From an uncultured Gammaproteobacteria bacterium (GTDB lineage Bacteria > Patescibacteriota > Patescibacteriia > UBA2591 > UBA6264), in contig CAZQVF010000003.1 in NCBI GenBank assembly GCA_964596735.1, forward strand, positions 42,611 through 106,610: a DNA stretch of 64,000 nucleotides, read 5' to 3'. Positions within the stretch are counted from its first letter, which is position 1. Every line of letters begins with the position of its first letter. The notes below the pieces were generated by a model. The model searched no databases, was not told the origin of the DNA, and saw nothing but the letters and a program-made list of their open reading frames with translations. Both the position numbers and the translations under genes were made by a program. Of the stretch, positions 18,571-59,425 are shown piece after piece.

Positions 18571-18587
18571 TTATAAATTTTTAATTT

Positions 18588-29671: not shown

Positions 29672-29707
29672 CATATTATAAAATAATATCTAAATAAGTC
29701 AAGACTT

Positions 29708-33031: not shown

Positions 33032-33415
33032 ATGAAAAAAGAAAAATCAAAAATTATTCAAACCACTCCGTCTCACTCCGATTATCAATTTGTAATCAAG
33101 GGGATAAAGCACGTCCCCGAATTTCTTAGCTTTGTTAATTGGTTTGCTACTCCAGGACAATTTAAAAAGCTAAAAAATCAGAAAGATTTCGCGAAATCAA
33201 TCGGAGTATGCCAGGATACCCTTACGGACTGGAAAAAGCATTCCCAATTTTGGCCATTAGTATTCGCATCTATTTCAGAATGGATAAAAGAAAAAATCCC
33301 CGACGCAATAGGAGGACTCTATGAAAGAATACTCAAAGACGGAAACCCAAAGGTGTTTGAAACATTTTTACGCCTTGGAGGAATTAATAATCAAGGCATT
33401 AAAAAAACAAAATAA
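33032..33415 (+). CDS. Terminase small subunit-like HTH protein.
   Basis: HTH segment SIGVCQDTLTDWKK. Size and position upstream of the terminase large subunit. Confidence 0.35.
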   Translation: MKKEKSKIIQTTPSHSDYQFVIKGIKHVPEFLSFVNWFATPGQFKKLKNQKDFAKSIGVCQDTLTDWKKHSQFWPLVFASISEWIKEKIPDAIGGLYERILKDGNPKVFETFLRLGGINNQGIKKTK

Positions 33416-33453
33416 AAAATAAATAAGTAATTCATTAACTAAATGAGGTAATT

Positions 33454-34776
33454 ATGCAAAAAGAAAACTTTAAAATCATTCAAGTTCCTATTAAGGACTT
33501 GTCTCCTGCTCTATATAATCCAAGAAAATGGAGTAAGGAAGCAATTAGTCAACTTAAAGAAAGTATCACAAAATTTGGACTAGTCGATCCAATAATAGTG
33601 AACAAACATAAAGGTCGGGAAAACATAATTATTGGTGGACATTTCAGAGTGAAAATAGCAAAAGATTTGGGTATTAAAGATGTCCCCGTCTACTATATTG
33701 ATTTAAACGAAAAGCGAGAAAAAGAACTAAACCTAAGATTAAATAAAGCAACTGGTGAATGGGACTGGAATCTTCTTGCTGATTTTGATGAAAACTTTTT
33801 ATCAGATGCTGGTTTTTCAAGTGAAGAATTAGACGAAATATTTGACATTGAAGACAATCCCGAATTATTCGACTTAGAGAAAGAATTAAGAAAACTTGAT
33901 ATTAAAAATATAAAAATCAAAAAGGGCGATGTTTATGAATTGGACGGCAATAGATTAATGTGCGGCGATTCCACAATAGAAAAAGATATAAAAAAACTAA
34001 TGAATGAACAAAAAGCAGATATGTGTTTTACAGACCCTCCTTATTTATTAAATTATTTAAAGGGAAAAAAGAAAAACGGCAAAGCAACCGAAGGATTTGG
34101 ATATAAAAGAAACAGAAAATATTTAGAAACAGATGTTATTCCTCCCGACTTCACTGAAAAGTGGATGGCTAATATCCATAAAATACAAAAAGACGATTTT
34201 GCTATTATCGTCTACGAAAACTGGAAAAATATAAGAACTATTTGGAATGAAATGGAAAAATATTGGAAGGTAAAGAATATGCTTGTCTGGCATTTGAGTA
34301 ATAGAACCCAAGGCTTTGCTGCAAAATACAAATTCTTTTCTAAGTATGATATAGCCATGCTCGGATATTCAGGTGGCGTAAATCTTAATACAAAAGAAGA
34401 GCCAGAAAAAATTCAAAATGAATATGAGGCTGCTCTGTTCGCCATATCTGGAAAGCCACATTGGGAAAACTACAAAAAAGGTAAAAAATATTGTCCAACT
34501 GATTTTGTTGAATACCGAGCATCTGATGAAAAAAGTTCTGGGCAGGGAATAATTTTTGGCACCAAGCCAGTGGAAATATTAATTCCATATATAAAGGTCT
34601 TGACCAAAAGGAATGATTTGATTGTTGAGCCATTCGGGGGCAGTGGAAGTACTTTGATGGCTGCCATCAAAATGAAAAGAAGATGCTACTTGATAGAAAA
34701 ATCACCTGTTTATACAGAGGTGATTAAAAAGAGATGGGAAAATTTTACTGGCAAAAAAGCCAAAAAAATCGATTAA
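33454..34776 (+). CDS. ParB-like nuclease domain fused to a DNA methyltransferase (phage-type ParB-MTase).
   Basis: N-terminal ParB/Srx-like PALYNPRKW...GGHFRV, central TDPPY and C-terminal EPFGGSGSTLMAA. Confidence 0.75.
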   Translation: MQKENFKIIQVPIKDLSPALYNPRKWSKEAISQLKESITKFGLVDPIIVNKHKGRENIIIGGHFRVKIAKDLGIKDVPVYYIDLNEKREKELNLRLNKATGEWDWNLLADFDENFLSDAGFSSEELDEIFDIEDNPELFDLEKELRKLDIKNIKIKKGDVYELDGNRLMCGDSTIEKDIKKLMNEQKADMCFTDPPYLLNYLKGKKKNGKATEGFGYKRNRKYLETDVIPPDFTEKWMANIHKIQKDDFAIIVYENWKNIRTIWNEMEKYWKVKNMLVWHLSNRTQGFAAKYKFFSKYDIAMLGYSGGVNLNTKEEPEKIQNEYEAALFAISGKPHWENYKKGKKYCPTDFVEYRASDEKSSGQGIIFGTKPVEILIPYIKVLTKRNDLIVEPFGGSGSTLMAAIKMKRRCYLIEKSPVYTEVIKKRWENFTGKKAKKID

Positions 34777-34803
34777 ATATTTAATTTATTTAAATTCAAA
34801 TTT

Positions 34804-35211
34804 ATGAAGAATGATGCAGAAATAAAAAAGAAATTAATTGAAGAATTAAAAAAAACGCCAATAGTGCAGATAGCTTGTTTAAAAGTGAATATTAGCAGAG
34901 CTACCTATTATCGCTGGCGTAAAGACGATAAAAAATTCAGCCGAATGACCGATAAAGCAATTTTAGATGGTTCACTATTAATCAACGATTTAGCAGAAAG
35001 TCAATTAATTAGTGCAATTAAAGACAAAAATATAACATCACTAATCTTTTGGCTCAAGAATCATCATCCTACTTATGCGACAAGGATCGAAGTAATGGCG
35101 CATTTAAAATCCTCCTCTGATGAGTCGTTAACGCCAGAACAACAGACTCTTGTTAAAAAAGCGCTTAAGCTGGCAAATTTACCTAATAAACTTAATAAAA
35201 ATAACGAATAA
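34804..35211 (+). CDS. HTH-domain protein, possibly a terminase small subunit.
   Basis: VQIACLKVNISRATYYRWRKDDKKF helix-turn-helix. Confidence 0.35.
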   Translation: MKNDAEIKKKLIEELKKTPIVQIACLKVNISRATYYRWRKDDKKFSRMTDKAILDGSLLINDLAESQLISAIKDKNITSLIFWLKNHHPTYATRIEVMAHLKSSSDESLTPEQQTLVKKALKLANLPNKLNKNNE

Positions 35212-35215
35212 TTAT

Positions 35216-36670
35216 ATGAACATTAATACAAATATAATGGATCAAACTTTGATCAAAAAAATTATTAACGACCGCAAAGTTCGTGTTGCTATTGCGCGTC
35301 AAAGTCACCTTTGGTTCTTTAATATCTATTTTTCTAATTACGTCATAAACGAAACTGCTCCTTTTCAGAAAGAAATGTTTAATTTAACCGAAAATGAGTT
35401 AAATAAACTCGCAGTTATTGTTGCATTTAGAGGTTCAGCCAAGTCAACAATTATGACTATGTCATATCCAATATGGTCAATTCTTGGCAACCAGCAGAAA
35501 AAATTTGTACTGATTATCAGCCAAACACAAGAACAGGCTAGACTACATCTTAAAAATCTAAAAAACGAACTTGAAAGAAATAAGCTCTTGAAAACTGATC
35601 TCGGACCATTTGAAGAAAACGATGACTGGAGAAGCTACTCACTTGTTATACCAAAGTACAACGCTAGAATTACAGCGGCTTCAATTGAGCAAAGTATACG
35701 CGGCATCAGACACGGCGAACACAGGCCCGATCTCATAATTTGTGATGATATAGAAGATCTTAATTCAGTTAAAACACGTGAAAGTAGAGACAAAACTCAT
35801 CAATGGCTTAGGGGAGATGTAATTCCTGCCGGAGATAAAAACACAAAAATTGTCTTAGTGGGAAATCTCCTTCATGAGGATTCTGTATTAATGAGACTAA
35901 AACAAGATATTGATGAAGGAAGGCTTGCCGGAATATACAAACGATATCCATTACTTGACGAAAATAATCAAAGTTTATGGCCCGGAAAATATAATACAGT
36001 AAAAGATATAGAAATATTGAAACATACCATTGGCGATGAAATTGCTTGGCAAAGAGAATTTCTTTTACGCATCGTTCCTAATACAAATCGTGTTGTTCAG
36101 TCAGATTGGATCAATTATTATGAACATTTATCTGAAAATAAAAATGAACTACTTTGCGTCCTTACTGGCATTGATCTCGCTATAGCCGAGAAAGATAGCT
36201 CTGATTATACCTCAATGGTCTCCGCTAGAGTCTATATTCATAATAATAAACTGTGTATATATATCCTTCCCAATCCAGTAAACGAACGCATGGACTTTGC
36301 CAAGCAATTAGAAAAAGCGAAATTTCTTTCTAAAAGCCTTGGTGATGGATATCCAACTCGACTTTTAGTTGAAGACGTAGGCTATCAAAAAGTATTTATC
36401 CAGCAATTACAAAAAGATGGATTCCCCGCTGAATCATTTCACTTAGAAGGTCGAGATAAACGATCACGACTTATGTCAACTACTCATCTTATTCAATTAG
36501 GGAATGTTCTTTTCCCTAAACATGGAGCAGAAAAATTAATTGAGCAACTTGTAGGTTTTGGAGTTGAAAAACATGATGATTTAGTTGATGCTTTTACCAT
36601 GATTATCCTCCAGATTTTGAAGGAACGCCCCTACGAAATTGACGTAAAAACTTTAGTTTTTTCTGTATAA
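35216..36670 (+). CDS. Phage terminase large subunit. The track ORF starts at 35150; an internal ATG at about 35216 is the likely start.
   Basis: Walker A-like AFRGSAKST, Walker B DLIICDD and a C-terminal RNaseH-like nuclease region. Confidence 0.6.
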   Translation: MNINTNIMDQTLIKKIINDRKVRVAIARQSHLWFFNIYFSNYVINETAPFQKEMFNLTENELNKLAVIVAFRGSAKSTIMTMSYPIWSILGNQQKKFVLIISQTQEQARLHLKNLKNELERNKLLKTDLGPFEENDDWRSYSLVIPKYNARITAASIEQSIRGIRHGEHRPDLIICDDIEDLNSVKTRESRDKTHQWLRGDVIPAGDKNTKIVLVGNLLHEDSVLMRLKQDIDEGRLAGIYKRYPLLDENNQSLWPGKYNTVKDIEILKHTIGDEIAWQREFLLRIVPNTNRVVQSDWINYYEHLSENKNELLCVLTGIDLAIAEKDSSDYTSMVSARVYIHNNKLCIYILPNPVNERMDFAKQLEKAKFLSKSLGDGYPTRLLVEDVGYQKVFIQQLQKDGFPAESFHLEGRDKRSRLMSTTHLIQLGNVLFPKHGAEKLIEQLVGFGVEKHDDLVDAFTMIILQILKERPYEIDVKTLVFSV

Positions 36671-36763
36671 ATTTTGGAAAAATCTAAGGGTTTTTGGGAT
36701 AAAAAGTTATCAACAGTTTGGGCTGGATATATGTTGTTTTTGCGGTATCCTTGGTCTCACTAA

Positions 36764-38140
36764 ATGAATAATTATAAAACTATGGATTACCAAAAAACAA
36801 CATTAAATCAAGGTTTAAGTGCGACCAGTCCCCTATCAACAGAAGAAGCGCCTGTTAAATATTGTCTTTACGCGAGAAAATCAACTGAAGACGATGAAAA
36901 ACAGGCGCTTTCCATTGATTCCCAAATAAAAGAAATGGAAGAATTAGCAGAAAAAATAGGATTAGAAGTAGTGGAAACCAAAAAAGAATCTCATTCTGCT
37001 AAAAAATCGGGTGACCGTCCTATTTTTAATAAACTTATTGATGGAATCAAACAGGGATTGTATCAAGGAATCCTCACTTGGGCCCCGGATAGATTGAGTA
37101 GGAATGCTGGAGACTTAGGAATATTGGTAGATTTAATAGATTATGGACATTTGAGAGAAATAAGAACATACGGACAGAATTTTTCTAATAAACCAAATGA
37201 TAAATTCCTTCTTATGATCCTATGTAGTCAGGCAAAACTAGAAAATGACTGCAAAAGCGAAAACGTTAAAAGGGGCCTCAGGGCTAAATGCGCCATGGGA
37301 TGGCGACCCGGACTTCCCCCCTTGGGATATCTTCATGATAAATATGCAGACAAGGGAAAAAGAAAAGTACTTCTTGATCCGAAAAGAGCTCCGATAATAA
37401 AACAAATGTTTGAAAAGGTGGCTTATGAAAGCATGAGAGGAAGACAATTATTCCACTGGTTGAACTATAAGATAAAATTCAGAAGTCGGGCCGGTAAAAG
37501 AATTACCCTTAGCACTATTTACCAAATACTTAGTGAACATTTCTATTATGGAAAATTTGAATATCCTAAAGGTAGTAGTAATTGGTATAAAGGTGGATAT
37601 GAACCAATAATTACAGAAGAGCTATTTAATCAAGTCAGGGCTAAATTATTAGTCTCGCCAAGAAGACATCCGGGGACCAATGAATATGACTTTACTAAAT
37701 TATTTACTTGCGGAAACTGTGGATCGGGAATCACTGCTGAAGAAAAATTTAAAAAGATAAGCGACGGCACTCGCCGTCGCTATGTTTATTATCACTGTAG
37801 TAGATTTAAAAATGAAAAATGTAATGAAAAATATATTAGAGAAGAAGAATTACTAAAACAATTATTGGAAATCATAGATAAAATTGATGTAGATGAAATA
37901 AAATTAGAAACTAAAATGGAAAGAGAAATTATGAGATACCGCAAATTTTATTACGGAGTACTTAATCAAGATGGAAAAATCGAAAAAAGGCCCATTGATG
38001 TAGATATAAGAAATTATGCTAAATATGTTCTCATAGAAGGATCTAGAGATGAAAAAAGAGAAATATTAAATTGTCTAAGAAGCAAATTAGAGCTAAAAGA
38101 TAAAACGCTTTATTTAAAAATTACAGGAAAAATAATATAG
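36764..38140 (+). CDS. Large serine recombinase (phage integrase type).
   Basis: N-terminal resolvase catalytic domain YARKSTEDDEKQALSIDSQ, recombinase domain, Zn ribbon CGNCGSG...HCSRF and a coiled coil. Confidence 0.8.
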   Translation: MNNYKTMDYQKTTLNQGLSATSPLSTEEAPVKYCLYARKSTEDDEKQALSIDSQIKEMEELAEKIGLEVVETKKESHSAKKSGDRPIFNKLIDGIKQGLYQGILTWAPDRLSRNAGDLGILVDLIDYGHLREIRTYGQNFSNKPNDKFLLMILCSQAKLENDCKSENVKRGLRAKCAMGWRPGLPPLGYLHDKYADKGKRKVLLDPKRAPIIKQMFEKVAYESMRGRQLFHWLNYKIKFRSRAGKRITLSTIYQILSEHFYYGKFEYPKGSSNWYKGGYEPIITEELFNQVRAKLLVSPRRHPGTNEYDFTKLFTCGNCGSGITAEEKFKKISDGTRRRYVYYHCSRFKNEKCNEKYIREEELLKQLLEIIDKIDVDEIKLETKMEREIMRYRKFYYGVLNQDGKIEKRPIDVDIRNYAKYVLIEGSRDEKREILNCLRSKLELKDKTLYLKITGKII

Positions 38141-38193
38141 ATATTGATTTTTATAAAAAAGCTCTTTATAATTAAAATACAAGTTAATATTGC

Positions 38194-38330
38194 TGTACGA
38201 CCTTATAATGCCCTCATCAGGGGCTGGTCGTACAGCATCCATACTTCGGTATGGTAAACCTTGGTGGGGGCTTTGTAGTTAGGTCAATTACCAAGGATAA
38301 ATAAAGGTCATCTTTAATCAAATCTAATAA
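38194..38330. repeat. Structured GC-rich segment with three stem-loops directly after the serine recombinase gene. Candidate att site or ncRNA.
   Basis: 11-bp inverted repeat gctgtacgacc/ggtcgtacagc (38194-38204 and 38234-38244) enclosing ccct-catc-aggg. Also ccatac-ttcg-gtatgg and ccttggt...accaagg. Confidence 0.3.
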
Positions 38331-38338
38331 AAATAACT

Positions 38339-38905
38339 ATGAATATAAATGAAGAAAAAGAAAAAAATGAAAATTCACCAAATCGGGAACAGATTGAACA
38401 AGAGGAAAAAATACGAGCAGAAGCACGAGCTAAGGCAGAAAAGGAGATTAAAGAAAAAGAAAAAATAAAAGAAGCAAACAAACAAGCCATTGGATGTCTA
38501 ACTGCTTTAGTTATTATCGTTTTAGTCGTTATCTTGTTTGTTCTCCCTGATAATGGAGAAGAAAAAAATCAGAAAATAGTTGGGTCTCCACCAATAAAAA
38601 TTTCAGCTGTCCAATTAAATAAAGAATATGATGCAAACAAAGTTGCAGCTGACCAGAAATATAAAGACAAGATAGTAGAAATGTCTGGAATTATAGACGA
38701 CATCGGGAAAACCATTTTAGATAAACCCTACGTTATCATCAAAGGAAAAGAATATTCCCCATTTGTTATCCAATGTATGTTCGATAATGAATATAAAAAT
38801 AAATTAGCTAACCTATCCAAAGAGCAATCTATTACTGTTAAATGTCAAGTATCTAGTGAATTGATTGGTTATATTATATTAAGAGATTGTGTAATTGTTA
38901 AATAA
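38339..38905 (+). CDS. Hypothetical membrane-anchored protein.
   Basis: Charged N-terminus, one TM helix and an extracytoplasmic domain. Confidence 0.35.
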   Translation: MNINEEKEKNENSPNREQIEQEEKIRAEARAKAEKEIKEKEKIKEANKQAIGCLTALVIIVLVVILFVLPDNGEEKNQKIVGSPPIKISAVQLNKEYDANKVAADQKYKDKIVEMSGIIDDIGKTILDKPYVIIKGKEYSPFVIQCMFDNEYKNKLANLSKEQSITVKCQVSSELIGYIILRDCVIVK

Positions 38906-38989
38906 AAAATTATATTTTTTTAATTATATGCAAAACAAAGAGAAGAAAATCAAATTTTATTTAACTTTTTAACTAATAAAAATAAAACT

Positions 38990-39559
38990 ATGAAAAAATT
39001 AAAATTCTGGGTAATTTCATTGATAATAATCGTTATCTTGGGTTGTCTATATATATGGGCAAAAAATGTAAAGAATGAAACAATAGAAAATATAGATAAA
39101 GATGTGGCTAAAATACAAGAGATGGAAAAAGATCAACAAGAACTGAAAGAAATGTGGGAAGATAATAAAAAGGAAATAAACGAACAGTTTATTGAACAAT
39201 CAATATTAGAGCCGAAAATGAAAGAATTAGAACAGAAGCCACAACAGGAGGAAGAAAAACCCCAATCCAATCAACCAATAATCGAACAAACATCGTCAGA
39301 TCCTGAACCTGAACCAGAAACAAAGACCGATAGAAACAAGATGATAGAAATTTTTAAAGCAGACGCCCTAGCAAAATGGGGTGACGATTACCAAATGGTA
39401 AATTATGAAGTAGGAGAACAAACTGAAGCATACGACTGGATTGTTATACAAACTAAATACCCAGAAATCATGACAAGAGCAAAACAAAAATGGGGCAATG
39501 ATTATGGAATGGTGAAATATGAATATGAAGAACAGGTTGAGGCTTACGAATCTTTATAA
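38990..39559 (+). CDS. Hypothetical membrane-anchored protein with an internal tandem repeat.
   Basis: N-terminal TM helix and acidic linker. A duplicated ~30-aa module reads AKWGDDYQMVNYEVGEQTEAYDWI and QKWGNDYGMVKYEYEEQVEAYESL. Confidence 0.35.
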   Translation: MKKLKFWVISLIIIVILGCLYIWAKNVKNETIENIDKDVAKIQEMEKDQQELKEMWEDNKKEINEQFIEQSILEPKMKELEQKPQQEEEKPQSNQPIIEQTSSDPEPEPETKTDRNKMIEIFKADALAKWGDDYQMVNYEVGEQTEAYDWIVIQTKYPEIMTRAKQKWGNDYGMVKYEYEEQVEAYESL

Positions 39560-39704
39560 AAAATATTCTTATAGAAGACATTCATAGTTACAGTGGTAAT
39601 AGGAAGTAAATAAAAATCTTGCCAATGACAGAAAAACATAAAGGGTTGCCTTTATGTTTTTTTATACTTAACCGATGGAGCTCGGTCGGTTTCACAAGAA
39701 TTGT

Positions 39705-39778
39705 TGGCTCGGGGGTAGGGATTCGAACCCCAATTTACTGGACCAAAACCAGCAGTCCTGCCATTAGACGACCCCCGA
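39705..39778 (-). tRNA. tRNA-Gln(UUG).
   Basis: Cloverleaf with a U1-A72 pair, G73 discriminator, anticodon loop TTTTGGT, T-arm TGGGG-TTCGAAT-CCCTA and encoded CCA. Confidence 0.7.
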
Positions 39779-52864: not shown

Positions 52865-52911
52865 TAATCTGTGGATAATTTATTTGCCTTTTTTCCGTAT
52901 TTATGTATAAT

Positions 52912-53206
52912 AGAAACCTTGAGATGGAGGGTAAAATGAGCTTAATTCAAAAGTTCAGATGCAATCCTCCCTCGTCATCCTGGTTGGTGATTGTTGAGCC
53001 GCCATGTGCTGTTCAAAGTTGTCCACCGACCAGATGTGGTAAAATGATCAAACGGCTGTTAATCATGGGTAAAATACCTTTCCAGTGACCATGCTGTAAA
53101 ATGGTTTTCGTCCGCGGTATACATCCGTTTAAATGTGAAAAATCACATTCTTTGTTGACAAGGGCAAAGGAGTGCAAAGGGGCCGCAAACGAGCGGCCCT
53201 TTTGTC
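52912..53206 (+). ncRNA. Candidate ~300-nt structured ncRNA with its own promoter and terminator; class unidentified.
   Basis: Extended -10 tgTATAAT at 52896-52903. GC-rich body with long-range complementarity (gatggaggg...ccctcgtcatc). Terminator at 53179-53206. Its only ORF is Cys/Pro-rich and low-complexity. No plus-strand gene lies downstream. Confidence 0.25.
53179..53206 (+). terminator. Intrinsic terminator gggccgc-aaacga-gcggccc plus TTTTG.
   Basis: A 7-bp GC stem followed by a T-run. Confidence 0.5.
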
Positions 53207-55054: not shown

Positions 55055-57094
55055 ATGGATTTAATTATTGTTGAATCACCAACCAAGGCAAAAACTATTA
55101 CTCGCTTTTTGAGCGATGATTTTTTAGTTGAATCATGTAATGGTCATATCCGAGACCTGCCTAGAGGAAAATTAGGAGTAGATCCTGAAAAAAACTTTGA
55201 GACCCAATATGTTATTCCTACCACTAAAAGAAAAATAGTAAATAAATTAAAAAAATTAGGCGAGAAAGCAGATAAAATATATCTGGCTAGTGATGAAGAT
55301 CGCGAAGGAGAAGCCATTGCTTGGCATTTAGACCATATTTTAGAATCTAAAAACACTAAACGCATTAGCTTTCATGAAATTACTCAAGAAGCAATTAAAC
55401 AGGCTTTAAAAACTCCGCGACAGATTGATATAAACTTAGTTAATTCTCAACAATCTCGTCGCATTCTTGACCGCTTAGTTGGATATAAACTATCTCCCTT
55501 ATTATGGAAAAAGCTAGTTAAAGGGCTTTCGGCCGGACGAGTCCAATCACCAGCTGTTAGGTTGATTGTGGAAAGAGAAAGAGAAATTGAAAAATTCAAA
55601 CCTCAAGAATACTGGTCTATTGAAGCAGAATTAAAAGACAAAAAAGAAACTTTTTGGGCAAAATTAGTTAAAAAAGGGGGTAAAACACTTGATAAATTAG
55701 AAATTAAGACAGAAAAACAAGTCCAAGAAATTATTAAAGATTTAGAAAAGGCGGAATACAAAATAATTGATATTAGAAAAAAAGAAATTAATAAATCCCC
55801 TCGCCCACCCTTTATCACCAGTACTCTTCAACAACAAGCCAGTAGAAATCTTAGCTTTTCTGTAAAACAGACAATGGTGATTGCTCAACAACTTTATGAA
55901 GGTGTTTCTTTAAATAAAAAAGGTGCAGCTGGTTTAATCACTTATATGCGCACAGATTCTTTAAATCTTTCAGAGAAATTTTTAAAAGAAAGTCAATCCT
56001 TTATTAAAAAAGTATACGGTGATAAATATTTAGAAAAACGTGTTTACAAGACAAAATCAAAAACGGCTCAAGAGGCTCATGAGGCCATTCGTCCTACTGA
56101 TTGTCAAAATACTCCAGAAAAAATGGCCAAATATTTAAACAAAAACCAATTAAAACTATATGATTTAATTTGGCGTCGAGCAATGGCCTCACAGATGAGT
56201 AAGCAGATTCTTGACTCAACCGCTGTTGATATTGAAGCAAAACAATATCTTTTCCGAGCCAATGGTTTAAACATAAAATTTGATGGGTGGTTAAAAATTT
56301 ATCCTGAAAAACAAAAAGAAAACTATTTACCAGATTTAAAAATTAATCAGATTTTAGAATTAAAACAGTTAAAGCCTGATCAACATTTTACAGAACCACC
56401 TCCCCGCTACAGTGAGGCTAGTTTGGTTAAAATTTTAGAAGAATATGGAATTGGCCGGCCATCAACCTATGCTCCAATTATTACCACGATTCAAACTAGA
56501 AATTACGTACTAAAAGAACAAAAACGATTTAAGCCAACTGAGATAGGTATTTTAGTTAATGACCTTTTAGTAAAACATTTTTTTGATATTGTCGATTATA
56601 AGTTTACTGCTCAGCTAGAAGATAATTTAGATGAAATTGCTCAAGGAAAAGAAGATTATCTAAAAATGCTTAATAATTTTTATCAACCTTTTATAAAAAA
56701 TTTACAAATGAAAGAAGAAGAAATTGAGAAAAAATTTACTGATGAACAAACAGATGAAAAATGTCCTAAATGTAATGAACCATTAGTTATAAAAATGGGG
56801 CGTTTTGGAAAATTCTTAGCCTGCACTGGATTTCCTAAATGTAGACACACAAAGTCTTTAACAGACTCATCAGGTAATAATCATGAAAAAATTGATATTC
56901 CTTGTCCTAAGTGTGACGGAGAAATCGTGAAAAAAAGAACTAGAAAGGGAAAATTCTTTTATGGCTGTTCAAACTGGCCCAAATGTGACTTTGCCGTATG
57001 GGATGAACCAACCGATGAAAAGTGCCCTAAGTGTAAAAGCATCATGGTTAAAAAAGGAGACCAAATAAAATGCAGTAATAAAGAGTGTAAATAA
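55055..57094 (+). CDS. topA: DNA topoisomerase I with C-terminal zinc ribbons.
   Basis: TOPRIM N-terminus MDLIIVESPTKAKTI, the catalytic Tyr region and three C-terminal CxxC...CxxC ribbons. Confidence 0.9.
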   Translation: MDLIIVESPTKAKTITRFLSDDFLVESCNGHIRDLPRGKLGVDPEKNFETQYVIPTTKRKIVNKLKKLGEKADKIYLASDEDREGEAIAWHLDHILESKNTKRISFHEITQEAIKQALKTPRQIDINLVNSQQSRRILDRLVGYKLSPLLWKKLVKGLSAGRVQSPAVRLIVEREREIEKFKPQEYWSIEAELKDKKETFWAKLVKKGGKTLDKLEIKTEKQVQEIIKDLEKAEYKIIDIRKKEINKSPRPPFITSTLQQQASRNLSFSVKQTMVIAQQLYEGVSLNKKGAAGLITYMRTDSLNLSEKFLKESQSFIKKVYGDKYLEKRVYKTKSKTAQEAHEAIRPTDCQNTPEKMAKYLNKNQLKLYDLIWRRAMASQMSKQILDSTAVDIEAKQYLFRANGLNIKFDGWLKIYPEKQKENYLPDLKINQILELKQLKPDQHFTEPPPRYSEASLVKILEEYGIGRPSTYAPIITTIQTRNYVLKEQKRFKPTEIGILVNDLLVKHFFDIVDYKFTAQLEDNLDEIAQGKEDYLKMLNNFYQPFIKNLQMKEEEIEKKFTDEQTDEKCPKCNEPLVIKMGRFGKFLACTGFPKCRHTKSLTDSSGNNHEKIDIPCPKCDGEIVKKRTRKGKFFYGCSNWPKCDFAVWDEPTDEKCPKCKSIMVKKGDQIKCSNKECK

Positions 57095-57114: not shown

Positions 57115-57147
57115 TAAGAACCTGCTCACTGCGTTTGCAGAACCTTG
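57115..57147. repeat. Intergenic motif copy 3 in reverse orientation: TAAGAACCTGC-tcactgcgttt-GCAGAACCTTG.
   Basis: Reverse complement of the 11315 and 16942 copies with an 11-nt spacer. Lies 20 nt after the topA stop. Confidence 0.55.
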
Positions 57148-57197
57148 AAATTAAATTCTTTATTATATAAATAATAATGTAATTTAATTATAAATAT

Positions 57198-57281
57198 GCC
57201 TGGGTGGCGGAATTGGTTTACGCGCACGACTCAAAATCGTGTGGAGTTTTCTCCATGAGGGTTCGAGTCCCTCCCCAGGCA
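57198..57281 (+). tRNA. tRNA-Leu(CAA).
   Basis: Anticodon arm cacga-CTCAAAA-tcgtg, a long variable arm and T-arm GGGTTCGAGTCCC. CCA is not encoded. Confidence 0.85.
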
Positions 57282-57437
57282 TTTTTTATTTCTGGGGAAA
57301 ACTTTATCAAATTTATCCTATTTTATGATATAATAAGGGTATATATTTTTTCTTTTCATATAGTAAGGAGGTATAATAATTGGTCTATGGTGATCAGCTA
57401 GTCAGAAAAACAACACACAAAAAGAAGGAGATCTTCT

Positions 57438-57557
57438 ATGAAGAAATGTATTCATGCTCCCCCAATGCAGTCAAGTGTCAGCGAAGAGTCGCAAAGCATC
57501 ACTAATATCGCAGGTGATCCCGGTTTTCGCAGTCGGTGCGAGATTAACCGTTTCTGA
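57438..57557 (+). CDS. Small peptide gene 1, 39 aa: MKKCIHAPPMQSSVSEESQSITNIAGDPGFRSRCEINRF.
   Basis: RBS AAGGAG 10 nt upstream. It is followed by a GGGGCCCC-stem terminator. Confidence 0.3.
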   Translation: MKKCIHAPPMQSSVSEESQSITNIAGDPGFRSRCEINRF

Positions 57558-57575
57558 TCAATTCCCATGGATAAA

Positions 57576-57606
57576 GGGGCCCCAAGGAGGGGCCCTATTT
57601 CTTTTA
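57576..57606 (+). terminator. Intrinsic terminator gggcccc-aagga-ggggccc plus a T-run.
   Basis: A 7-bp all-GC stem. Confidence 0.6.
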
Positions 57607-57644
57607 AAACCTAATTTTGCTCTTTTCAAAACCTGTAAAAATAC

Positions 57645-57673
57645 TTGTATTTTTCTTTTTTTCCTGTTATTAT
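57645..57673 (+). promoter_or_regulatory. Promoter TTGTAT-17-TATTAT for peptide cassette 2; the same element recurs at about 57949-57977.
   Basis: A ~70-bp block conserved at nucleotide level between the two cassettes, including AAGGAGGTCCGG. Confidence 0.45.
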
Positions 57674-57744
57674 TAATAACAAGGAGGTCCGGTTAAATGT
57701 ACGGAACTCATTTCCATGTGAACAAAAAACACAAGGAAGACGTA

Positions 57745-57855
57745 ATGAAAAATACCAAACTACTGGTTACCACGATCCCCCGTGGCAGCCCCATGACCAA
57801 TAACACTGAATTCCCATCGACCGGTTCAATTCTTACCACCACTAACAATAAGTGA
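57745..57855 (+). CDS. Small peptide gene 2, 36 aa: MKNTKLLVTTIPRGSPMTNNTEFPSTGSILTTTNNK. An in-frame upstream ATG at 57697 would give 52 aa.
   Basis: Paralogous to gene 3, with the conserved N-terminus MK..+LL..TIPRGSPM.NN. It has its own RBS and terminator. Confidence 0.4.
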   Translation: MKNTKLLVTTIPRGSPMTNNTEFPSTGSILTTTNNK

Positions 57856-57898
57856 TGACGAAGCTATATTGATTAAGTGATGGTCGGATAATAGTAAA

Positions 57899-57930
57899 GG
57901 GGCCCCTGAAAGGAGGGGCCCCGCTTTTTT
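57899..57930 (+). terminator. Intrinsic terminator ggggcccc-tgaaagga-ggggcccc plus TTTTTT.
   Basis: An 8-bp all-GC stem followed by T6. Confidence 0.65.
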
Positions 57931-58050
57931 AAAAAACCTGTAAAAATACTTGTATTTTTCTTTTTTTCCTGTTATTATTAATAACAAGGAGGTCCGGTTA
58001 ATTGTACGGAACTCGTTTCAATGTGAATAAAATACACAAAGGAACATATA

Positions 58051-58170
58051 ATGAAAAAGATGAGACTACTGGCAGCCACGATCCCTCGCGGCAGCCCCAT
58101 GAACAATAACGATTCGTCTTATAATGAGAAGCCCGTCACCGGTTCGGTCTTGGTCAACAGTAAACAATAA
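58051..58170 (+). CDS. Small peptide gene 3, 39 aa: MKKMRLLAATIPRGSPMNNNDSSYNEKPVTGSVLVNSKQ.
   Basis: Paralogue of gene 2. Its upstream leader is conserved in nucleotides but out of frame, so it is treated as UTR. Confidence 0.4.
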   Translation: MKKMRLLAATIPRGSPMNNNDSSYNEKPVTGSVLVNSKQ

Positions 58171-58220
58171 CTCGGTGTGAAGCTCTATTGATTACGTGAT
58201 GATCAAGGTTGTATTAAACA

Positions 58221-58256
58221 GGGGCCCCAAAAGGAGGGGCCCCACATCTTTTCTCT
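58221..58256 (+). terminator. Intrinsic terminator ggggcccc-aaaagga-ggggcccc plus a T-rich tail.
   Basis: An 8-bp all-GC stem. Confidence 0.55.
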
Positions 58257-58293
58257 TGTATTTTTTCTAATTTTATTGTATAATAAAAAAAAT

Positions 58294-58368
58294 CGCGGGG
58301 TAGAGCAATGGCAGCTCGCCAGGCCCATAACCTGGAGGTTGTAGGTTCGAATCCTACCCCCGCAACCA
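58294..58368 (+). tRNA. Initiator tRNA-fMet(CAU).
   Basis: C1xA72 mismatch, A11:U24, anticodon loop CCCATAA and T-arm GTAGG-TTCGAAT-CCTAC. CCA is encoded. Confidence 0.75.
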
Positions 58369-58369
58369 T

Positions 58370-58441
58370 GGCAGGATAGCTCAGTGGTAGAGCAGTGGAC
58401 TCATAAGCCACGTGTCGCGGGTTCAATTCCCGCTCCTGCTA
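58370..58441 (+). tRNA. tRNA with CAU anticodon (elongator Met or Ile2/lysidine).
   Basis: Begins 1 nt after the previous tRNA. Anticodon loop CTCATAA and T-arm GCGGG-TTCAATT-CCCGC. Confidence 0.7.
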
Positions 58442-58450
58442 TTTATAAGA

Positions 58451-58501: not shown

Positions 58502-59425
58502 TTAACTTCTCTCTTCTCTTTTTACCAAATCATTCCAACGTCTATCAACTTCTGATTGCAAACTATCTAGAATATTTTTATTTTTTGTTTTTAATAAATG
58601 CCTAAACCTACCTTGGCTCTTTATAAATTCCTTGATTGGCAATTTCTTTGAAGGTTTATAATTCAATTTGTATTTTCCGTCTTCTATTTCATACAAAGGC
58701 CAAAAACAGGTTTCTGTTGCTAATTCAGCTATTTCAATAGTTAAAGAGGAATCATATTTCCAACCAACTACACAAGGAGATAAAACGTTTAAAAAGGTTG
58801 GTCCATTGGTCTCTATGGCCTTTTTTGTTTTTTGGTGTAAATCTACCCAATTGTGAACCCCGGCTTGGGCTAAATAAGGTAATTCGTGAGCTTCGGCAAT
58901 TTTCATAATATTCTTTCTTGATTTTAGTTTCCCTTTATAAACCTTTCCCAAAGGCGTAGTGGTTGTTAAGGCCCCCAAGGGAGTAGCTGAAGAACGTTGA
59001 TTTCCAGTGTTTTGATAGGCCTCATTGTCATAACAGACATATAAAAAATTATCTCTTCTTTCCCATGAGCCTGACAGAGACTGCAAACCAATGTCATAGG
59101 TTGAACCATCTCCTCCAAAAACAATAAATTTAATATCCTCTTTAATCTTCTTTTTCCTTTTTAATTGTTCATAAACAGCAATAACCCCACTCATGGTTGG
59201 CGGAGCATTTTCAAAGAGACTATGAATCCAAGGTACCTTCCATGAACTTTGAGGATAAAGCGTAGTTGTTACCTCTAAACAACTAGTGGCATTGGCAATA
59301 ACAACCGGTTTGTCTGTAGCCCTTAAGACAGAACGAACAATGATGGGCATGGCACACCCCTGACAACTGCGATGACCCGGAGCTAAACGTTCTGGTTTTT
59401 TTAATAATTGTCTAAGTGTTTCCAT
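58502..59425 (-). CDS. porB: 2-oxoacid:ferredoxin oxidoreductase beta subunit (TPP-binding, PorB-like).
   Basis: PGHRSCQGCA N-terminus and the TPP motif FGGDGSTYDIG. Confidence 0.75.
   Translation of the reverse strand: METLRQLLKKPERLAPGHRSCQGCAMPIIVRSVLRATDKPVVIANATSCLEVTTTLYPQSSWKVPWIHSLFENAPPTMSGVIAVYEQLKRKKKIKEDIKFIVFGGDGSTYDIGLQSLSGSWERRDNFLYVCYDNEAYQNTGNQRSSATPLGALTTTTPLGKVYKGKLKSRKNIMKIAEAHELPYLAQAGVHNWVDLHQKTKKAIETNGPTFLNVLSPCVVGWKYDSSLTIEIAELATETCFWPLYEIEDGKYKLNYKPSKKLPIKEFIKSQGRFRHLLKTKNKNILDSLQSEVDRRWNDLVKREERS

What the first reader, a model, noticed from the sequence alone, without database searches (positions are those of the whole stretch)
57438..58256. Three tandem small-peptide cassettes, each with a consensus promoter, strong SD and all-GC terminator, placed between tRNA-Leu and the tRNA-Met pair
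Seen in sequence: cassettes 2 and 3 share about 70 bp of near-identical upstream DNA (TTGTAT-17-TATTAT promoter, AAGGAGGTCCGG, and a conserved untranslated leader tgtacggaactcNtttcNatgtgaa). They encode paralogous 36- and 39-aa peptides: MKNTKLLVTTIPRGSPMTNNTEFPSTGSILTTTNNK and MKKMRLLAATIPRGSPMNNNDSSYNEKPVTGSVLVNSKQ. These have a conserved N-terminal half and a variable Ser/Thr/Asn-rich C-terminal half. Cassette 1 encodes a different 39-aa Cys-containing peptide. Each is closed by a GGGGCCCC-loop-GGGGCCCC terminator. Nucleotide-level conservation of a non-coding leader, together with a conserved-leader / variable-core peptide pattern, resembles RiPP or bacteriocin precursor arrays or small secreted effectors. 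No modification enzymes are adjacent in the window. Strong expression signals next to tRNA genes suggest abundant products.
Basis: partly seen in the sequence, partly recalled or inferred. Interest (0 to 1): 0.7.

Follow-up and report, generated by a model that had tools for sequence, protein, structure and literature searches.

The report
Orphan small-peptide gene cassettes between tRNAs
Three self-contained mini-genes, each with its own promoter, ribosome-binding signals, a 36-39 codon reading frame and a terminator, sit in tandem in a tRNA spacer of an uncultured Patescibacteria (CPR) bacterium; they are real and probably encode fast-evolving small peptides, but they have no known relatives and no demonstrable function.

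Summary
Between tRNA-Leu(CAA) and two tRNA-Met genes lie three about 310-nt units, each with a promoter-like site, a perfect AAGGAGGT at or near the RNA 5' end, a small ORF and a GGGGCCCC hairpin terminator. Units 2 and 3 are direct repeats; unit 1 is a distant paralogue. One correction: AAGGAGGTCCGG is not the SD of the listed ORFs. It lies 50-57 nt upstream and serves a non-conserved upstream start. Each sORF has its own weaker SD-like motif.

The cassettes are lineage-specific insertions. Relatives with TopA at least 94% identical carry 0, 1, 2 or 3 of them. In other relatives the same spacer holds homing-endonuclease genes or an unrelated sORF.

Several things favour translation of the + strand ORFs. 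Start and stop codons are conserved, indels are in frame, the unit 2 orthologue differs by 2 synonymous and 1 non-synonymous change against 19% neutral divergence, and amino-acid similarity is frame-specific. N-termini are conserved and C-termini diverge or are replaced.

The RiPP/bacteriocin reading has no support: no family match and no maturase among the large ORFs scanned. A type-I-toxin-like antisense hydrophobic ORF and a pure ncRNA remain rivals. No homologues were found in any database searched. This is a modestly interesting orphan small-gene family.

The parts
57197..57282 (+). tRNA-Leu(CAA), left boundary of the insertion site
   Evidence: ARAGORN; Rfam. Synteny TopA-tRNALeu-tRNAMet-tRNAMet is conserved in relatives.
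57326..57334 (+). Unit 1 promoter-like extended -10 (TGATATAAT). A second TATAAT lies at 57372-57377.
   Evidence: Read from the sequence. The TATAAT hexamer is conserved in L118; the TG of the extended -10 is not. The transcription start is not determined.
57365..57372 (+). Unit 1 perfect SD-like AAGGAGGT, followed 7 nt later by TTG 57380 (upstream ORF of 41 codons, out of frame with sORF1)
   Evidence: In L118 the same start is in frame with the sORF, so the upstream-ORF frame is not conserved.
57438..57557 (+). sORF1, 39 aa, MKKCIHAPPMQSSVSEESQSITNIAGDPGFRSRCEINRF. Its own SD-like GAAGGAGA is at 57424-57431.
   Evidence: The orthologue in L118 keeps the ATG, the first 9 codons and the TGA stop (TGATCAAYTCCC), with a 66-nt (22-codon) length difference in between.
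57576..57606 (+). Unit 1 terminator: GGGGCCCC-AAGGA-GGGGCCC plus T-rich tail
57645..57673 (+). Unit 2 promoter-like TTGTAT-17-TATTAT with TG upstream of the -10
   Evidence: Read from the sequence. Identical in unit 3, nearly identical in L110, and resembles the tRNA-Met promoter.
57681..57744 (+). Unit 2 leader. AAGGAGGT 57681-57688 lies at the predicted 5' end; an upstream ATG at 57697 is in frame here, giving a 52-aa ORF; the sORF's own SD-like AAGGAAG is at 57733-57739.
   Evidence: The upstream start is ATG, TTG or TTA in different alleles, and 1-nt indels change its frame.
57745..57855 (+). sORF2, 36 aa, MKNTKLLVTTIPRGSPMTNNTEFPSTGSILTTTNNK
   Evidence: The orthologue in L110/L111 differs by 2 synonymous and 1 non-synonymous change.
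57826..57890 (+). Unit 2 conserved hairpin enclosing the last codons, the stop codon and the conserved 3'UTR block GAAGCTNTATTGATTANGTGATGNTC
   Evidence: RNAalifold (columns 165-224, 2 compensatory pairs); repeat D5.
57899..57930 (+). Unit 2 terminator: GGGGCCCC-TGAAAGGA-GGGGCCCC plus T6
57950..57978 (+). Unit 3 promoter-like TTGTAT-17-TATTAT
57986..58050 (+). Unit 3 leader. AAGGAGGT is at 57986-57993; an upstream TTG at 58002 opens a 35-codon out-of-frame ORF; SD-like AAAGGAA is at 58038-58044.
58051..58170 (+). sORF3, 39 aa, MKKMRLLAATIPRGSPMNNNDSSYNEKPVTGSVLVNSKQ
   Evidence: It carries an in-frame 12-nt insertion relative to unit 2. A population variant in L001 has K3M and K27M.
58221..58251 (+). 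Unit 3 terminator: GGGGCCCC-AAAAGGA-GGGGCCCC plus T-rich tail
57708..57848 (-). Antisense ORF of unit 2. From ATG 57793 it reads MGLPRGIVVTSSLVFFITSSLCFLFTWK; it is hydrophobic. Rival reading only.
57978..58106 (-). Antisense ORF of unit 3. From ATG 58102 it reads MGLPRGIVAASSLIFFIICSFVYFIHIETSSVQLTGPPCY; it is hydrophobic. Rival reading only.
58256..58442 (+). tRNA-Met promoter (TTGTAT 58256-58261, TATAAT 58279-58284) and two tRNA-Met genes, right boundary of the insertion site

Best explanation
The three units are autonomous, monocistronic small-gene cassettes, 'moron-like' promoter-sORF-terminator units. They were inserted and tandemly amplified in the tRNA-Leu/tRNA-Met spacer of a Patescibacteria genome.

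Each is transcribed on the + strand from a native-type promoter into an RNA of roughly 250 nt that ends at a very stable GGGGCCCC hairpin. The 36-39 codon + strand ORF is translated into a hydrophilic, probably disordered peptide. Its N-terminal 9-20 residues are conserved within each subfamily: type A is MK.CIHAPP, and type B is MK..(K/R)LL..TIPRGSPM.NN. The C-terminal part diverges quickly or is replaced.

The perfect AAGGAGGT near the RNA 5' end, with a start codon 7-9 nt behind it, most likely loads a ribosome at the 5' end. I infer two effects by analogy with strong 5' SD elements that block 5'-3' decay in Bacillus: protection of the transcript, and opening of the leader for the sORF's own weaker SD.

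Shown here: the anatomy, copy-number polymorphism, the insertion history, sequence constraint on the ORF, and maintenance of the reading frame. Inferred: transcription, translation, and the role of the 5' SD. Unknown: what the peptides do. My best guess is accessory, dispensable peptides of a mobile or selfish character, not housekeeping products.
For: Expression signals all point to the + strand: promoter-like sites, SD-like motifs 5-7 nt before each ATG, and hairpins followed by T-runs.

ORF maintenance. The ATG and SD-like motif are conserved in all 7 alleles seen: units 1-3, L110, L111, L118 and the L001 variant.
- In type A the conserved ATG and the conserved TGA are separated by 117 versus 183 nt. 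The difference is 66 nt, or 22 codons, and both are open.
- In type B a 12-nt indel is in frame and introduces no + strand stop.
- The chance of such open frames in dinucleotide shuffles is 0.11-0.37 each.

Constraint between orthologues. Unit 2 versus L110 shows 3 differences in 111 nt of ORF (2 synonymous, 1 non-synonymous; dN/dS about 0.16). Four-fold sites of the adjacent topA differ by 19%, the cassette's own 3'UTR by about 18% and its leader by about 8%.

Frame-specific conservation. In the diverged C-terminal block (21-23 of 45-48 nt differ), only frame +1 and its mirror frame -2 keep amino-acid similarity, with BLOSUM sums of 30 and 27 against 7 or less plus stops in the other frames. 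The permutation test gives P=0.012. Frame -2 is interrupted by a TAA inside unit 3's insertion, so this signal belongs to +1.

An independent example in the same genome. A 50-aa Cys-rich sORF at 52936-53088 has the same layout (promoter, GGAGGG SD, terminator) and is also missed by gene callers. It is clearly protein-coding across three lineages, with many synonymous changes and dN/dS 0.19 against L110 (0.78 against the more distant L117).

The 5' SD role by analogy: ribosomes bound at an exceptionally strong SD block RNase J1 and stabilise hbs mRNA (PMC5737220).
Against: - No homologue exists outside a narrow lineage, so the coding tests rest on 2-3 effectively independent comparisons with small counts.
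- Unit 2 versus unit 3 gives dN/dS 0.64, which is only weak purifying selection.
- In the N-terminal 20 codons the differences fall 1/4/5 on codon positions 1/2/3. That fits the mirror frame at least as well.
- The two population SNPs in sORF3 are both non-synonymous.
- The genome essentially does not use SD sequences (5 of 55 large ORFs). The cassettes are also G+C-rich islands, with GC3 0.47-0.63 against 0.27. Their signals are therefore atypical for this host, and ORFs stay open more easily in such sequence: all six frames are open in L118.
- The AAGGAGG conserved in every terminator loop is not explained by this model.
- There is no expression data.
Confidence: 0.5

Rival explanations
1. 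Type-I toxin-antitoxin-like selfish modules, at least for type B (units 2 and 3). The functional peptide would be the hydrophobic 28-40 aa ORF on the - strand (MGLPRGIV..SSL.FFI...). The abundant + strand RNA, fully complementary to it, would be the antitoxin, as in Ibs/Sib.
For: - The - strand ORFs have a transmembrane-like stretch (GRAVY 0.9-1.3; best 19-residue window 2.2-2.75) and a polar/aromatic C-terminus.
- They are tandemly repeated in one intergenic region and missed by gene callers. These are exactly the criteria of Fozo et al. 2010 (PMC2887945).
- Copy number varies between near-identical strains.
- The same spacer holds other selfish elements in relatives: an HNH ORF, a GIY-YIG ORF, and a tRNA-Met gene split by an ORF-bearing insertion. 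A Gp49/HTH pair (HigBA-like) lies just downstream of the tRNA-Met genes in L127.
- The best-conserved stretch of type B is the start of this ORF. There the differences fall 3/1/5 on its codon positions, the canonical coding pattern.
- Two different 1-nt indels in unit 3 and L110 keep the same distal frame.
- Lack of an SD is normal for genes of this genome.
Against: - No convincing - strand promoter exists for the last or only cassette (unit 3, L110). The only promoter-like sites on that strand lie in the next unit's leader.
- In the half of the ORF antisense to the leader, differences fall 6/6/2 on codon positions, with no synonymous change.
- Four alleles have three different C-termini: a frameshift in unit 2 and a TAA in L111.
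- The hydrophobicity is the expected mirror image of an A-rich leader and of codons starting with A.
- Type A cassettes share the architecture but have no hydrophobic antisense ORF.
- The frame-specific conservation in the C-terminal block lies upstream of a stop in this frame in unit 3.
- No match to any toxin family in Pfam, NCBIfam or PADLOC.
Confidence: 0.17
2. Non-coding (or chiefly non-coding) small RNAs. On this view they are abundant, structured, G+C-rich transcripts of about 250 nt with conserved ends and a variable centre. The ORFs would be incidental. The repeated AAGGAGG motifs (5' end, mid-leader, terminator loop) would act on the 16S anti-SD or on a protein.
For: - The units are G+C islands (0.51-0.52) in a 33% G+C genome, as structured RNAs usually are.
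- Folding z-scores are -2.4 to -3.1.
- A hairpin enclosing the stop codon and 3'UTR is conserved, with 2 compensatory pairs.
- AAGGAGG is conserved in all five terminator loops, and perfect SD motifs are otherwise nearly absent from this genome's gene starts.
- A fourth transcript-like element at 18298-18570 also begins with AAGGAGGT, is structured and has no credible ORF.
- Types A and B share a C-rich stretch (CAYGMTCCCCC..GCAG) that is read in different frames.
- Gene callers predict nothing here.
Against: - No Rfam family matches, even at E up to 10.
- Much of the folding z-score comes from the terminator hairpin.
- ORF start, stop and frame are kept through large indels and a complete replacement of the centre.
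- Similarity in the diverged block is frame-specific.
- No complementarity of 12 nt or more to anything else in the window, apart from A/T-rich low-complexity words.
Confidence: 0.15
3. RiPP or bacteriocin precursor array. The conserved N-terminal leader would be recognised by a maturase encoded elsewhere, with a variable core.
For: A conserved N-terminus with a variable or replaced C-terminus is seen in both subfamilies. The genes are in tandem paralogous copies, and the cores are rich in Ser, Thr, Asn and Cys.
Against: - No precursor-family match in NCBIfam or Pfam.
- No maturase, RRE or peptidase-transporter among the large ORFs scanned in the window. The only radical-SAM-like ORF (21609-22415) is weak, lacks a SPASM hit and lies 36 kb away.
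- The type A 'leader' is only 9 residues.
- Units 2 and 3 have no Cys.
- Cassettes are present or absent among very close relatives without any linked gene changing.
Confidence: 0.08

Closest known systems
Morons: autonomous promoter-ORF-terminator units inserted between conserved genes, first described in lambdoid phages (from my own knowledge: Juhala et al. 2000; Hendrix et al. 2000)
   Same: Each unit has its own promoter and factor-independent terminator and a single short ORF. Its nucleotide composition differs from the surroundings (GC3 0.47-0.63 against 0.27). It sits between genes that are directly adjacent in close relatives, where the spacer is 65-70 nt.
   Different: The host is a bacterial chromosome at a tRNA cluster, not a phage genome. 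The units are tandemly amplified. The ORFs are far smaller than typical moron genes. No phage or plasmid match was found.
Type I toxin-antitoxin repeats of E. coli (ldr/rdl 'long direct repeats', ibs/sib), as defined by Fozo et al. 2010, PMC2887945
   Same: These are tandem direct repeats of a few hundred nt in one intergenic region, unannotated, and variable between strains. A small hydrophobic ORF is fully overlapped by a strongly expressed RNA from the other strand.
   Different: Here every recognisable expression signal belongs to the RNA that would be the antitoxin. The hydrophobic ORF has no promoter and its C-terminal half shows no coding signature. One of the three units has no such ORF. 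Toxicity is untested.
5' stabiliser SD elements of Firmicutes: the cryIIIA STAB-SD (from my own knowledge: Agaisse and Lereclus 1996) and the strong hbs SD (PMC5737220)
   Same: A perfect SD-like sequence lies near the 5' end of the transcript, remote from the main start codon. It is expected to hold a 30S subunit or ribosome and block 5'-3' decay.
   Different: Here it is followed by a start codon at SD spacing, so it probably also drives a short or overlapping upstream ORF. The host genome otherwise hardly uses SD sequences. Whether this organism has an RNase J-type decay pathway was not examined, and no stability data exist.
Hypervariable RiPP precursor families such as prochlorosins (from my own knowledge)
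   Same: Paralogous small genes share conserved expression signals and an N-terminal part, with highly divergent C-terminal parts.
   Different: There is no leader-family match, no maturase in view, a very short conserved N-terminus in type A, and no Cys in type B.
The conserved 50-aa Cys-rich sORF of the same genome (window 52936-53088)
   Same: It is also an unannotated intergenic cassette with promoter, SD, sORF and G+C hairpin terminator, in a genome that otherwise lacks SDs.
   Different: It is single-copy and present at the same place in lineages down to 88% TopA identity. It shows clear purifying selection against L110 (dN/dS 0.19), has no 5'-terminal extra SD, and has no sequence similarity to the three cassettes.

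Membership tests
Type I toxin-antitoxin locus | Toxin ORF under about 70 aa with a transmembrane-like stretch (at least 10 of 15 residues I, V, L, F, C, M or A) and a polar/aromatic C-terminus (PMC2887945) | tested here: inconclusive
   Met by the - strand ORFs of units 2 and 3 and of L110. Not met by unit 1 or L118.
Type I toxin-antitoxin locus | Toxin mRNA with its own promoter and translation start, under purifying selection as a protein | tested here: not met
   No - strand promoter for unit 3 or L110 (and reading). Differences fall 6/6/2 on codon positions in the leader-antisense half. Three different C-termini occur in four alleles.
Type I toxin-antitoxin locus | Antisense RNA overlapping the toxin mRNA | tested here: inconclusive
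   The + strand transcription unit predicted from sequence signals would overlap the whole - strand ORF. Transcription of either strand has not been observed.
Type I toxin-antitoxin locus | Toxicity of the peptide on overexpression, relieved by the RNA | not testable with these tools
   Needs an experiment.
RiPP / bacteriocin precursor | Match to a known precursor or leader family (Nif11, NHLP, double-glycine, lasso and others) | tested here: not met
   hmmscan against Pfam and NCBIfam at E up to 10 returned nothing for the + strand peptides.
RiPP / bacteriocin precursor | Nearby maturase, RRE protein, or peptidase-domain ABC exporter | tested here: not met
   Precomputed Pfam annotations cover the neighbours. 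Of the 55 ORFs of at least 120 aa in the window, 47 were scanned with Pfam, plus two shorter ORFs; none qualifies. The rest of the genome was not available.
RiPP / bacteriocin precursor | Conserved leader plus variable core among paralogues | tested here: met
   Type B: 14 of the first 20 residues identical, then divergence. Type A: 8 of the first 9 identical, then replacement.
Protein-coding small ORF (generic) | Start, stop and reading frame maintained across homologues, with indels in multiples of three | tested here: met
   Type A has a 66-nt length difference between the conserved ATG and TGA. Type B has a 12-nt in-frame indel. All 7 alleles are open. A 1-nt indel three to four codons before the stop changes the last residues of unit 3.
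Protein-coding small ORF (generic) | Excess of synonymous over non-synonymous change | tested here: inconclusive
   dN/dS is 0.16 for the orthologues, but from only 3 changes, and 0.64 for the paralogues. The frame-specific similarity test gives P=0.012. The mirror frame -2 shares third positions and cannot be separated by this test alone.
Known RNA family (Rfam 15) | Covariance-model match at or near the gathering score | tested here: not met
   Only tRNAs reach threshold. The best other matches score far below their gathering scores.
Moron-like autonomous transcription unit | Own promoter and terminator, atypical composition, inserted between genes that are adjacent in relatives | tested here: met
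   Searches show the signals and composition. The spacer is 65-70 nt with no cassette in L005, L113-115, L122 and L125. Promoter activity itself is untested.

The most novel reading that the evidence does not exclude
The cassettes could be a Patescibacteria-specific 'fixed frame, exchangeable core' peptide system. A conserved expression module would stay fixed: promoter, 5'-terminal SD, leader, the N-terminal 9-20 residues, and the stop plus terminator. The C-terminal core would be swapped by recombination or rapidly diversified, and the units tandemly amplified at a tRNA hot spot. The products could serve as variable effector, immunity or signalling peptides in the episymbiotic lifestyle, or as precursors for a maturase encoded elsewhere.

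A related non-excluded twist is that both strands are used: a + strand peptide/antisense RNA and a - strand membrane peptide. Another is that the three AAGGAGG motifs give these RNAs privileged access to ribosomes in an organism that otherwise initiates without SD.
Probability: 0.12. Interest if true: 0.7.

Novelty: new member of a known kind. Interest (0 to 1): 0.4.

Why it matters
Small proteins are systematically missed in genomes of uncultured bacteria. Here four promoter-SD-sORF-terminator cassettes in one 64-kb window were called by no pipeline and are absent from protein collections of billions of sequences.

If the peptides are made, they form a young, rapidly diversifying, copy-number-variable gene family in an organism with a minimal genome. 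Such a family could be relevant to host interaction or to intragenomic conflict.

The locus also documents a tRNA-spacer hot spot. Among close relatives it collects homing-endonuclease genes, an ORF-bearing insertion that splits a tRNA gene, and sORF cassettes, with a toxin-antitoxin pair just beyond it in one relative. In addition, the genome reserves canonical SD sequences for a handful of atypical genes, which could be used to study SD-dependent versus SD-independent initiation in Patescibacteria.

As it stands the finding is descriptive, and the family is confined to one narrow lineage.

Tried and rejected
Searches for relatives
- The type B peptide alignment against 5.8 billion proteins returned nothing.
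- The type A alignment returned nothing.
- A profile search of 1.84 billion representatives gave one spurious hit to a 15-fold repeat protein.
- The search for related loci with the peptides, in genome and metagenome contigs, matched patterns but none passed the tblastn confirmation. That step is too strict for peptides of about 36 aa: a cassette with the RGSPMNNN motif is known in JGI sample 3300009320 but was not returned.
- A terminator-pattern scan of metagenome contigs gave 25 loci, all G+C-rich and unrelated. The collection apparently does not hold the source lineage.
- Viral contigs and phage and plasmid blastn gave nothing.
- tblastn and blastn against all 124 fetched loci found only the same lineage.

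Ideas considered and dropped
- Upstream ORF after AAGGAGGT as the real gene. Its start is ATG, TTG or TTA in different alleles, and its frame relative to the sORF differs between alleles.
- Diversity-generating retroelement target. The differences between units 2 and 3 are not confined to adenines, and the window's DGR lies 55 kb away.
- T-box, riboswitch or attenuator of the tRNA-Met genes. There is no Rfam match, the tRNAs have their own promoter, and I saw no plausible antiterminator.
- Trans-acting antisense RNA. No complementarity of 12 nt or more exists within the window.
- Assembly artefact. The cassettes occur in several independent assemblies. In sample 3300009405 the contigs break exactly at the unit 2/unit 3 repeat.

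Not resolved
- Whether the 2-unit form (L001, L002, L004) is a true deletion or a collapsed repeat could not be decided.
Full report
WHAT IS THERE

The finding lies between tRNA-Leu(CAA) (57197-57282) and two adjacent tRNA-Met genes (58294-58442). This interval sits downstream of topA (55055-57094) and next to a pyruvate:ferredoxin-oxidoreductase beta-like gene on the other strand (58502-59425). The 1011 nt between the tRNAs consist of three units of about 305-325 nt.

Units 2 and 3 are a direct repeat. Positions 57623-57734 and 57928-58039 are 94% identical, the next 72 nt 82%, and a 3'UTR block 76%. Unit 1 aligns with them only in its promoter, leader, start region and terminator.

Each unit ends in a GGGGCCCC-loop-GGGGCCC(C) hairpin followed by a T-rich tail. 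The scan found 8 terminator-like sites in the region against 1.7 expected. Eleven of the window's 13 GGGCCCC words lie in these hairpins, against 3.0 expected by chance for the whole window. Rfam finds nothing but the tRNAs, even at E up to 10.

CORRECTIONS TO THE OBSERVATION

- The perfect AAGGAGGT (57365, 57681, 57986) is not the ribosome-binding site of the quoted ORFs. It lies 50-57 nt upstream of them, at or near the predicted 5' end of the RNA. It is followed 7-9 nt later by another start codon: TTG 57380, ATG 57697 and TTG 58002.
- That upstream ORF is in frame with the sORF in unit 2 and in L118, and out of frame in units 1 and 3 and in L110. It has lost its start in L111 (TTA). It is therefore not a conserved protein.
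- Each quoted sORF has its own weaker SD-like motif 5-7 nt before the ATG: GAAGGAGA, AAGGAAG and AAAGGAA.
- The promoter TTGTAT-17-TATTAT is not consensus. It closely resembles the promoter of the adjacent tRNA-Met genes, TTGTAT-17-TATAAT at 58256-58284.

ORGANISM AND GENOMIC CONTEXT

The closest TopA sequences in public genomes belong to Patescibacteria (CPR) MAGs.

The genome is 33% G+C and essentially does not use Shine-Dalgarno sequences. Only 5 of 55 large ORFs have any SD-like motif upstream. The start of TopA, whose listed ORF aligns from residue 1 with its homologues, and the starts of most other listed ORFs are preceded by plain A/T-rich sequence.

Against this background the cassettes are outliers in three ways:
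- They are G+C islands of 0.51-0.52.
- Their GC3 is 0.47-0.63 against 0.27 for the genome.
- Each carries two or three SD-like motifs, including an AAGGAGG in every terminator loop.

EVOLUTIONARY HISTORY

I used TopA as a positional anchor to fetch the same locus from relatives. The order TopA, tRNA-Leu, tRNA-Met, tRNA-Met is conserved. The Leu-Met spacer varies as follows:

| Locus | TopA identity | Content of the spacer or interval |
|---|---|---|
| L005 | 83% | 65 nt, no cassette |
| L113-115, L122, L125 | 94% | 65-70 nt, no cassette |
| L110, L111 | 96% | one cassette, orthologous to unit 2 |
| L118 | 94% | one cassette, orthologous to unit 1 |
| L001, L002, L004 | 100% | units 1 and 3; exactly the 305 nt of unit 2 absent |
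| window | query | all three units |
| L124 + L121 (one sample) | 100% | contigs break at the unit 2/3 repeat |
| L116 | 94% | HNH-like 109-aa ORF |
| L007 | 76% | unrelated 52-aa SD-led sORF cassette |
| L117 | 88% | tRNA-Met split in the anticodon loop by an insertion of about 800 nt with a 161-aa ORF |
| L127 | 79% | GIY-YIG ORF in the spacer; Gp49/HTH pair (HigBA-like) downstream of the tRNA-Met genes |

The site is thus a hot spot for small mobile or selfish insertions. The cassettes are young, dispensable and variable in copy number.

Synonymous divergence between sORF2 and sORF3 (dS 0.53) far exceeds the divergence of their promoter and leader: about 6% over the 112-nt repeat, and identical over roughly the first 75 nt. 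The 5' module has therefore been homogenised or recently re-duplicated onto older paralogous bodies.

CODING OR NOT, AND ON WHICH STRAND

(a) Constraint between orthologues. The window and L110 differ at 19% of four-fold sites in topA. The cassette's 3'UTR differs by about 18% and its leader by about 8% plus one indel. The 111-nt ORF differs at only 3 positions, 2 synonymous and 1 non-synonymous.

(b) Frame maintenance.
- In type A (unit 1 versus L118) the sequence is conserved through the promoter, the leader and the first nine codons (MK[K/T]CIHAPP). It then becomes essentially unalignable, and homology resumes exactly at the stop codon (TGATCAAYTCCC) and terminator.
- The two bodies are 117 and 183 nt long, a difference of 22 codons, and both are open.
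- In type B a 12-nt indel is in frame.
- Open frames of these lengths arise in 11-37% of dinucleotide shuffles each. Each alone is weak evidence. Together with the in-frame indels they make chance unlikely, at roughly 1 in 1000 by my estimate.

(c) Frame-specific similarity. In the strongly diverged C-terminal block of type B, only frame +1 and the antisense frame that shares its third codon positions (-2) retain amino-acid similarity. BLOSUM sums are 30 and 27; the other four frames score 7 or less and contain stops. Random placement of the same number of substitutions reaches the +1 score in 1.2% of trials.

(d) Separating +1 from -2.
- Frame -2 contains a TAA inside unit 3's 12-nt insertion, so the conserved C-terminal block cannot be part of a - strand protein there.
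- In the half of the - strand ORF that is antisense to the leader, differences fall 6/6/2 on codon positions, with no synonymous change.
- Its C-terminus differs in three of four alleles, through a frameshift in unit 2 and a TAA in L111.
- It has no promoter in single-cassette genomes.
- Type A has no hydrophobic antisense ORF.

(e) An internal control. A fourth cassette of the same design at 52880-53205 has an extended -10, a GGAGGG SD, a 50-aa Cys-rich ORF at 52936-53088 and a G+C hairpin. It is conserved in L110 and L117 with many synonymous changes; dN/dS is 0.19 against L110 and 0.78 against L117. Gene callers missed it as well. SD-led, unannotated small protein genes are therefore real in this genome.

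CAVEATS

- The evidence rests on very few independent comparisons.
- dN/dS between units 2 and 3 is 0.64.
- In the N-terminal 20 codons the differences fall 1/4/5 in frame +1 but 3/1/5 in frame -2.
- Both SNPs in the L001 variant of sORF3 are non-synonymous in +1 (K3M, K27M). One of them is a conservative F-to-I change in -2.
- The - strand ORFs (MGLPRGIVAASSLIFFIICSFVYFIHIETSSVQLTGPPCY and relatives) are strongly hydrophobic. They would pass the published tandem-repeat and transmembrane screen for type I toxins (PMC2887945).
- I therefore keep a type-I-toxin-antitoxin-like reading as the main rival. A pure ncRNA reading comes second. It is supported by the G+C-rich structured bodies, by the unexplained AAGGAGG in every terminator loop, and by a further AAGGAGGT-led structured element without an ORF at 18298-18570.

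MOST LIKELY MECHANISM

Each unit is an autonomous + strand transcription unit that produces a short, stable mRNA. It is capped at the 3' end by an 8-9 bp all-G+C hairpin.

I infer that the 5' end is protected by a ribosome or 30S subunit held at the perfect SD and its start codon. The analogy is the strong hbs SD, which blocks RNase J1 (PMC5737220), and the cryIIIA STAB-SD (my own knowledge). Translation from that upstream start would also open the leader for the sORF's own start.

The products are hydrophilic 36-39 aa peptides (GRAVY -0.4 to -0.7, net charge +1 to +4). They have no signal-peptide-like segment. The N-terminus is conserved and the C-terminus is free to change.

What they do is unknown. 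Dispensability, copy-number variation, atypical composition and the company they keep at this site point to an accessory or selfish role, not a housekeeping one.

COMPARISON WITH KNOWN SYSTEMS

- Architecturally the closest analogue is the phage 'moron': promoter, ORF and terminator, odd composition, inserted between genes that are adjacent elsewhere.
- The tandem, unannotated, strain-variable repeats recall the ldr/rdl and ibs/sib loci. A defining feature of those loci, an independently expressed and selected toxin gene, was tested and not met.
- The conserved-N, variable-C pattern recalls RiPP precursor families. There is, however, no family match, no maturase among the 47 large ORFs scanned, and no relative anywhere.

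VERDICT

The feature is real and was correctly spotted. It is best read as a narrow-lineage orphan family of small-peptide gene cassettes at a tRNA insertion hot spot. The RiPP/bacteriocin interpretation is unsupported. Interest is moderate: the family is small and its function is unknown. The locus is still a clean example of hidden small genes and of SD-bearing outlier genes in an SD-poor Patescibacteria genome.

Noticed in passing
window 974-3800: A diversity-generating retroelement. The C-terminal region of ORF 1076-1840 (variable repeat, about 1700-1838) is repeated at about 2215-2352 (template repeat), and the differences seen lie at adenines of the template. A reverse transcriptase gene follows at 2751-3797 (Pfam RVT_1, E=3.7e-23). 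The target gene has a perfect AAGGAGGT SD and the highest GC3 of the window (0.45).
   Followed up: partly
window 52880-53205: An unannotated, conserved small gene with an extended -10 promoter, a GGAGGG SD and a 50-aa Cys-rich ORF at 52936-53088 (MSLIQKFRCNPPSSSWLVIVEPPCAVQSCPPTRCGKMIKRLLIMGKIPFQ). A hairpin terminator lies at about 53170-53200. It is conserved in L110 (dN/dS 0.19) and L117, with many synonymous changes. No gene was called here in the public contigs.
   Followed up: partly
window 18260-18575 (+): A promoter (TTGACT-16-TAATAT) is followed by an RNA that starts near AAGGAGGT (18304). The body is about 250 nt, G+C-rich and structured, with a long-range helix GGUGCUGGGUGUU/AGCGUCCAGCACC (z=-2.8). 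It ends in a GGCCCCTG..CAGGGGCC terminator. There is no credible ORF and no Rfam match, so this is probably an undescribed ncRNA.
   Followed up: partly
whole window: The genome is nearly devoid of Shine-Dalgarno sequences at gene starts (5 of 55 large ORFs). Perfect SDs are confined to a few atypical genes: the three cassettes, the DGR target and the 50-aa sORF.
   Followed up: partly
L116 5328-5657; L117 4630-5380; L127 5155-6524; L007 3080-3350: In relatives the tRNA-Leu/tRNA-Met neighbourhood is an insertion hot spot. L116 has an HNH-like 109-aa ORF between the tRNA-Met promoter and the gene. L117 has a tRNA-Met split in the anticodon loop by an insertion of about 800 nt with a 161-aa ORF (group-I-intron-like). 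L127 has a GIY-YIG ORF with a duplicated tRNA-Met 5' half, plus a Gp49/HTH (HigBA-like) pair downstream of the tRNA-Met genes. L007 has an unrelated SD-led 52-aa basic/hydrophobic sORF with its own terminator.
   Followed up: partly
window 12798-16844 (-): A UvrD/PcrA-type helicase-nuclease of 1347 aa is interrupted by an intein (Pfam Intein_splicing E=1.6e-18, plus a Hint module).
   Followed up: no
window about 29700-39600, next to tRNA-Gln 39705-39778: A block of + strand genes looks like an integrated element. It includes a ParB-N/DNA methylase fusion (33454-34773), a weak terminase-like protein (35150-36667) and a large serine recombinase (36764-38137). It abuts a tRNA gene.
   Followed up: no
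window 57118-57160; L113 5041-5190; L114 5041-5270; L110 5660-5870: A short repeat, GAACCTGCTC(A/G)CT..GCAGAACCTTGAAATTAAAT, is present once after topA in the window. It is tandemly repeated two to three times in L113/L114, and related copies lie downstream of the tRNA-Met genes in L110. It looks like a REP/MITE-like element.
   Followed up: no
L008 7200-7440; L005 7485-7600: L008 shows what looks like a tRNA-Leu gene interrupted by an insertion that itself contains a second tRNA-Leu-like sequence. L005 and L117 carry a partial duplicate of the tRNA-Met T-arm with an inserted G+C hairpin between the two tRNA-Met genes.
   Followed up: no
window 23680-23860: An intergenic G+C-rich stretch (0.53) has hairpin-forming segments, for example CCGCAGTCCCGCTTTGCGGGAC. 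It has no ORF of 120 aa or more and no Rfam match. It may be another ncRNA; the strand is undetermined.
   Followed up: no
L087, L088, L091, L092, L094, L096, L099, L102, L103, L105-L109: The terminator-pattern scan pulled out a recurrent motif of about 90 nt in G+C-rich metagenome contigs. It reads ..CTGGTGCTGGTGGCGCGTG..CCCGTGAGGTGCGTCCACCGGCA.. followed by GGGGCCCCTCACGGGAGGGGCCCC and then a second terminator. It is unrelated to the cassettes and is probably an RNA family; I did not identify it.
   Followed up: no
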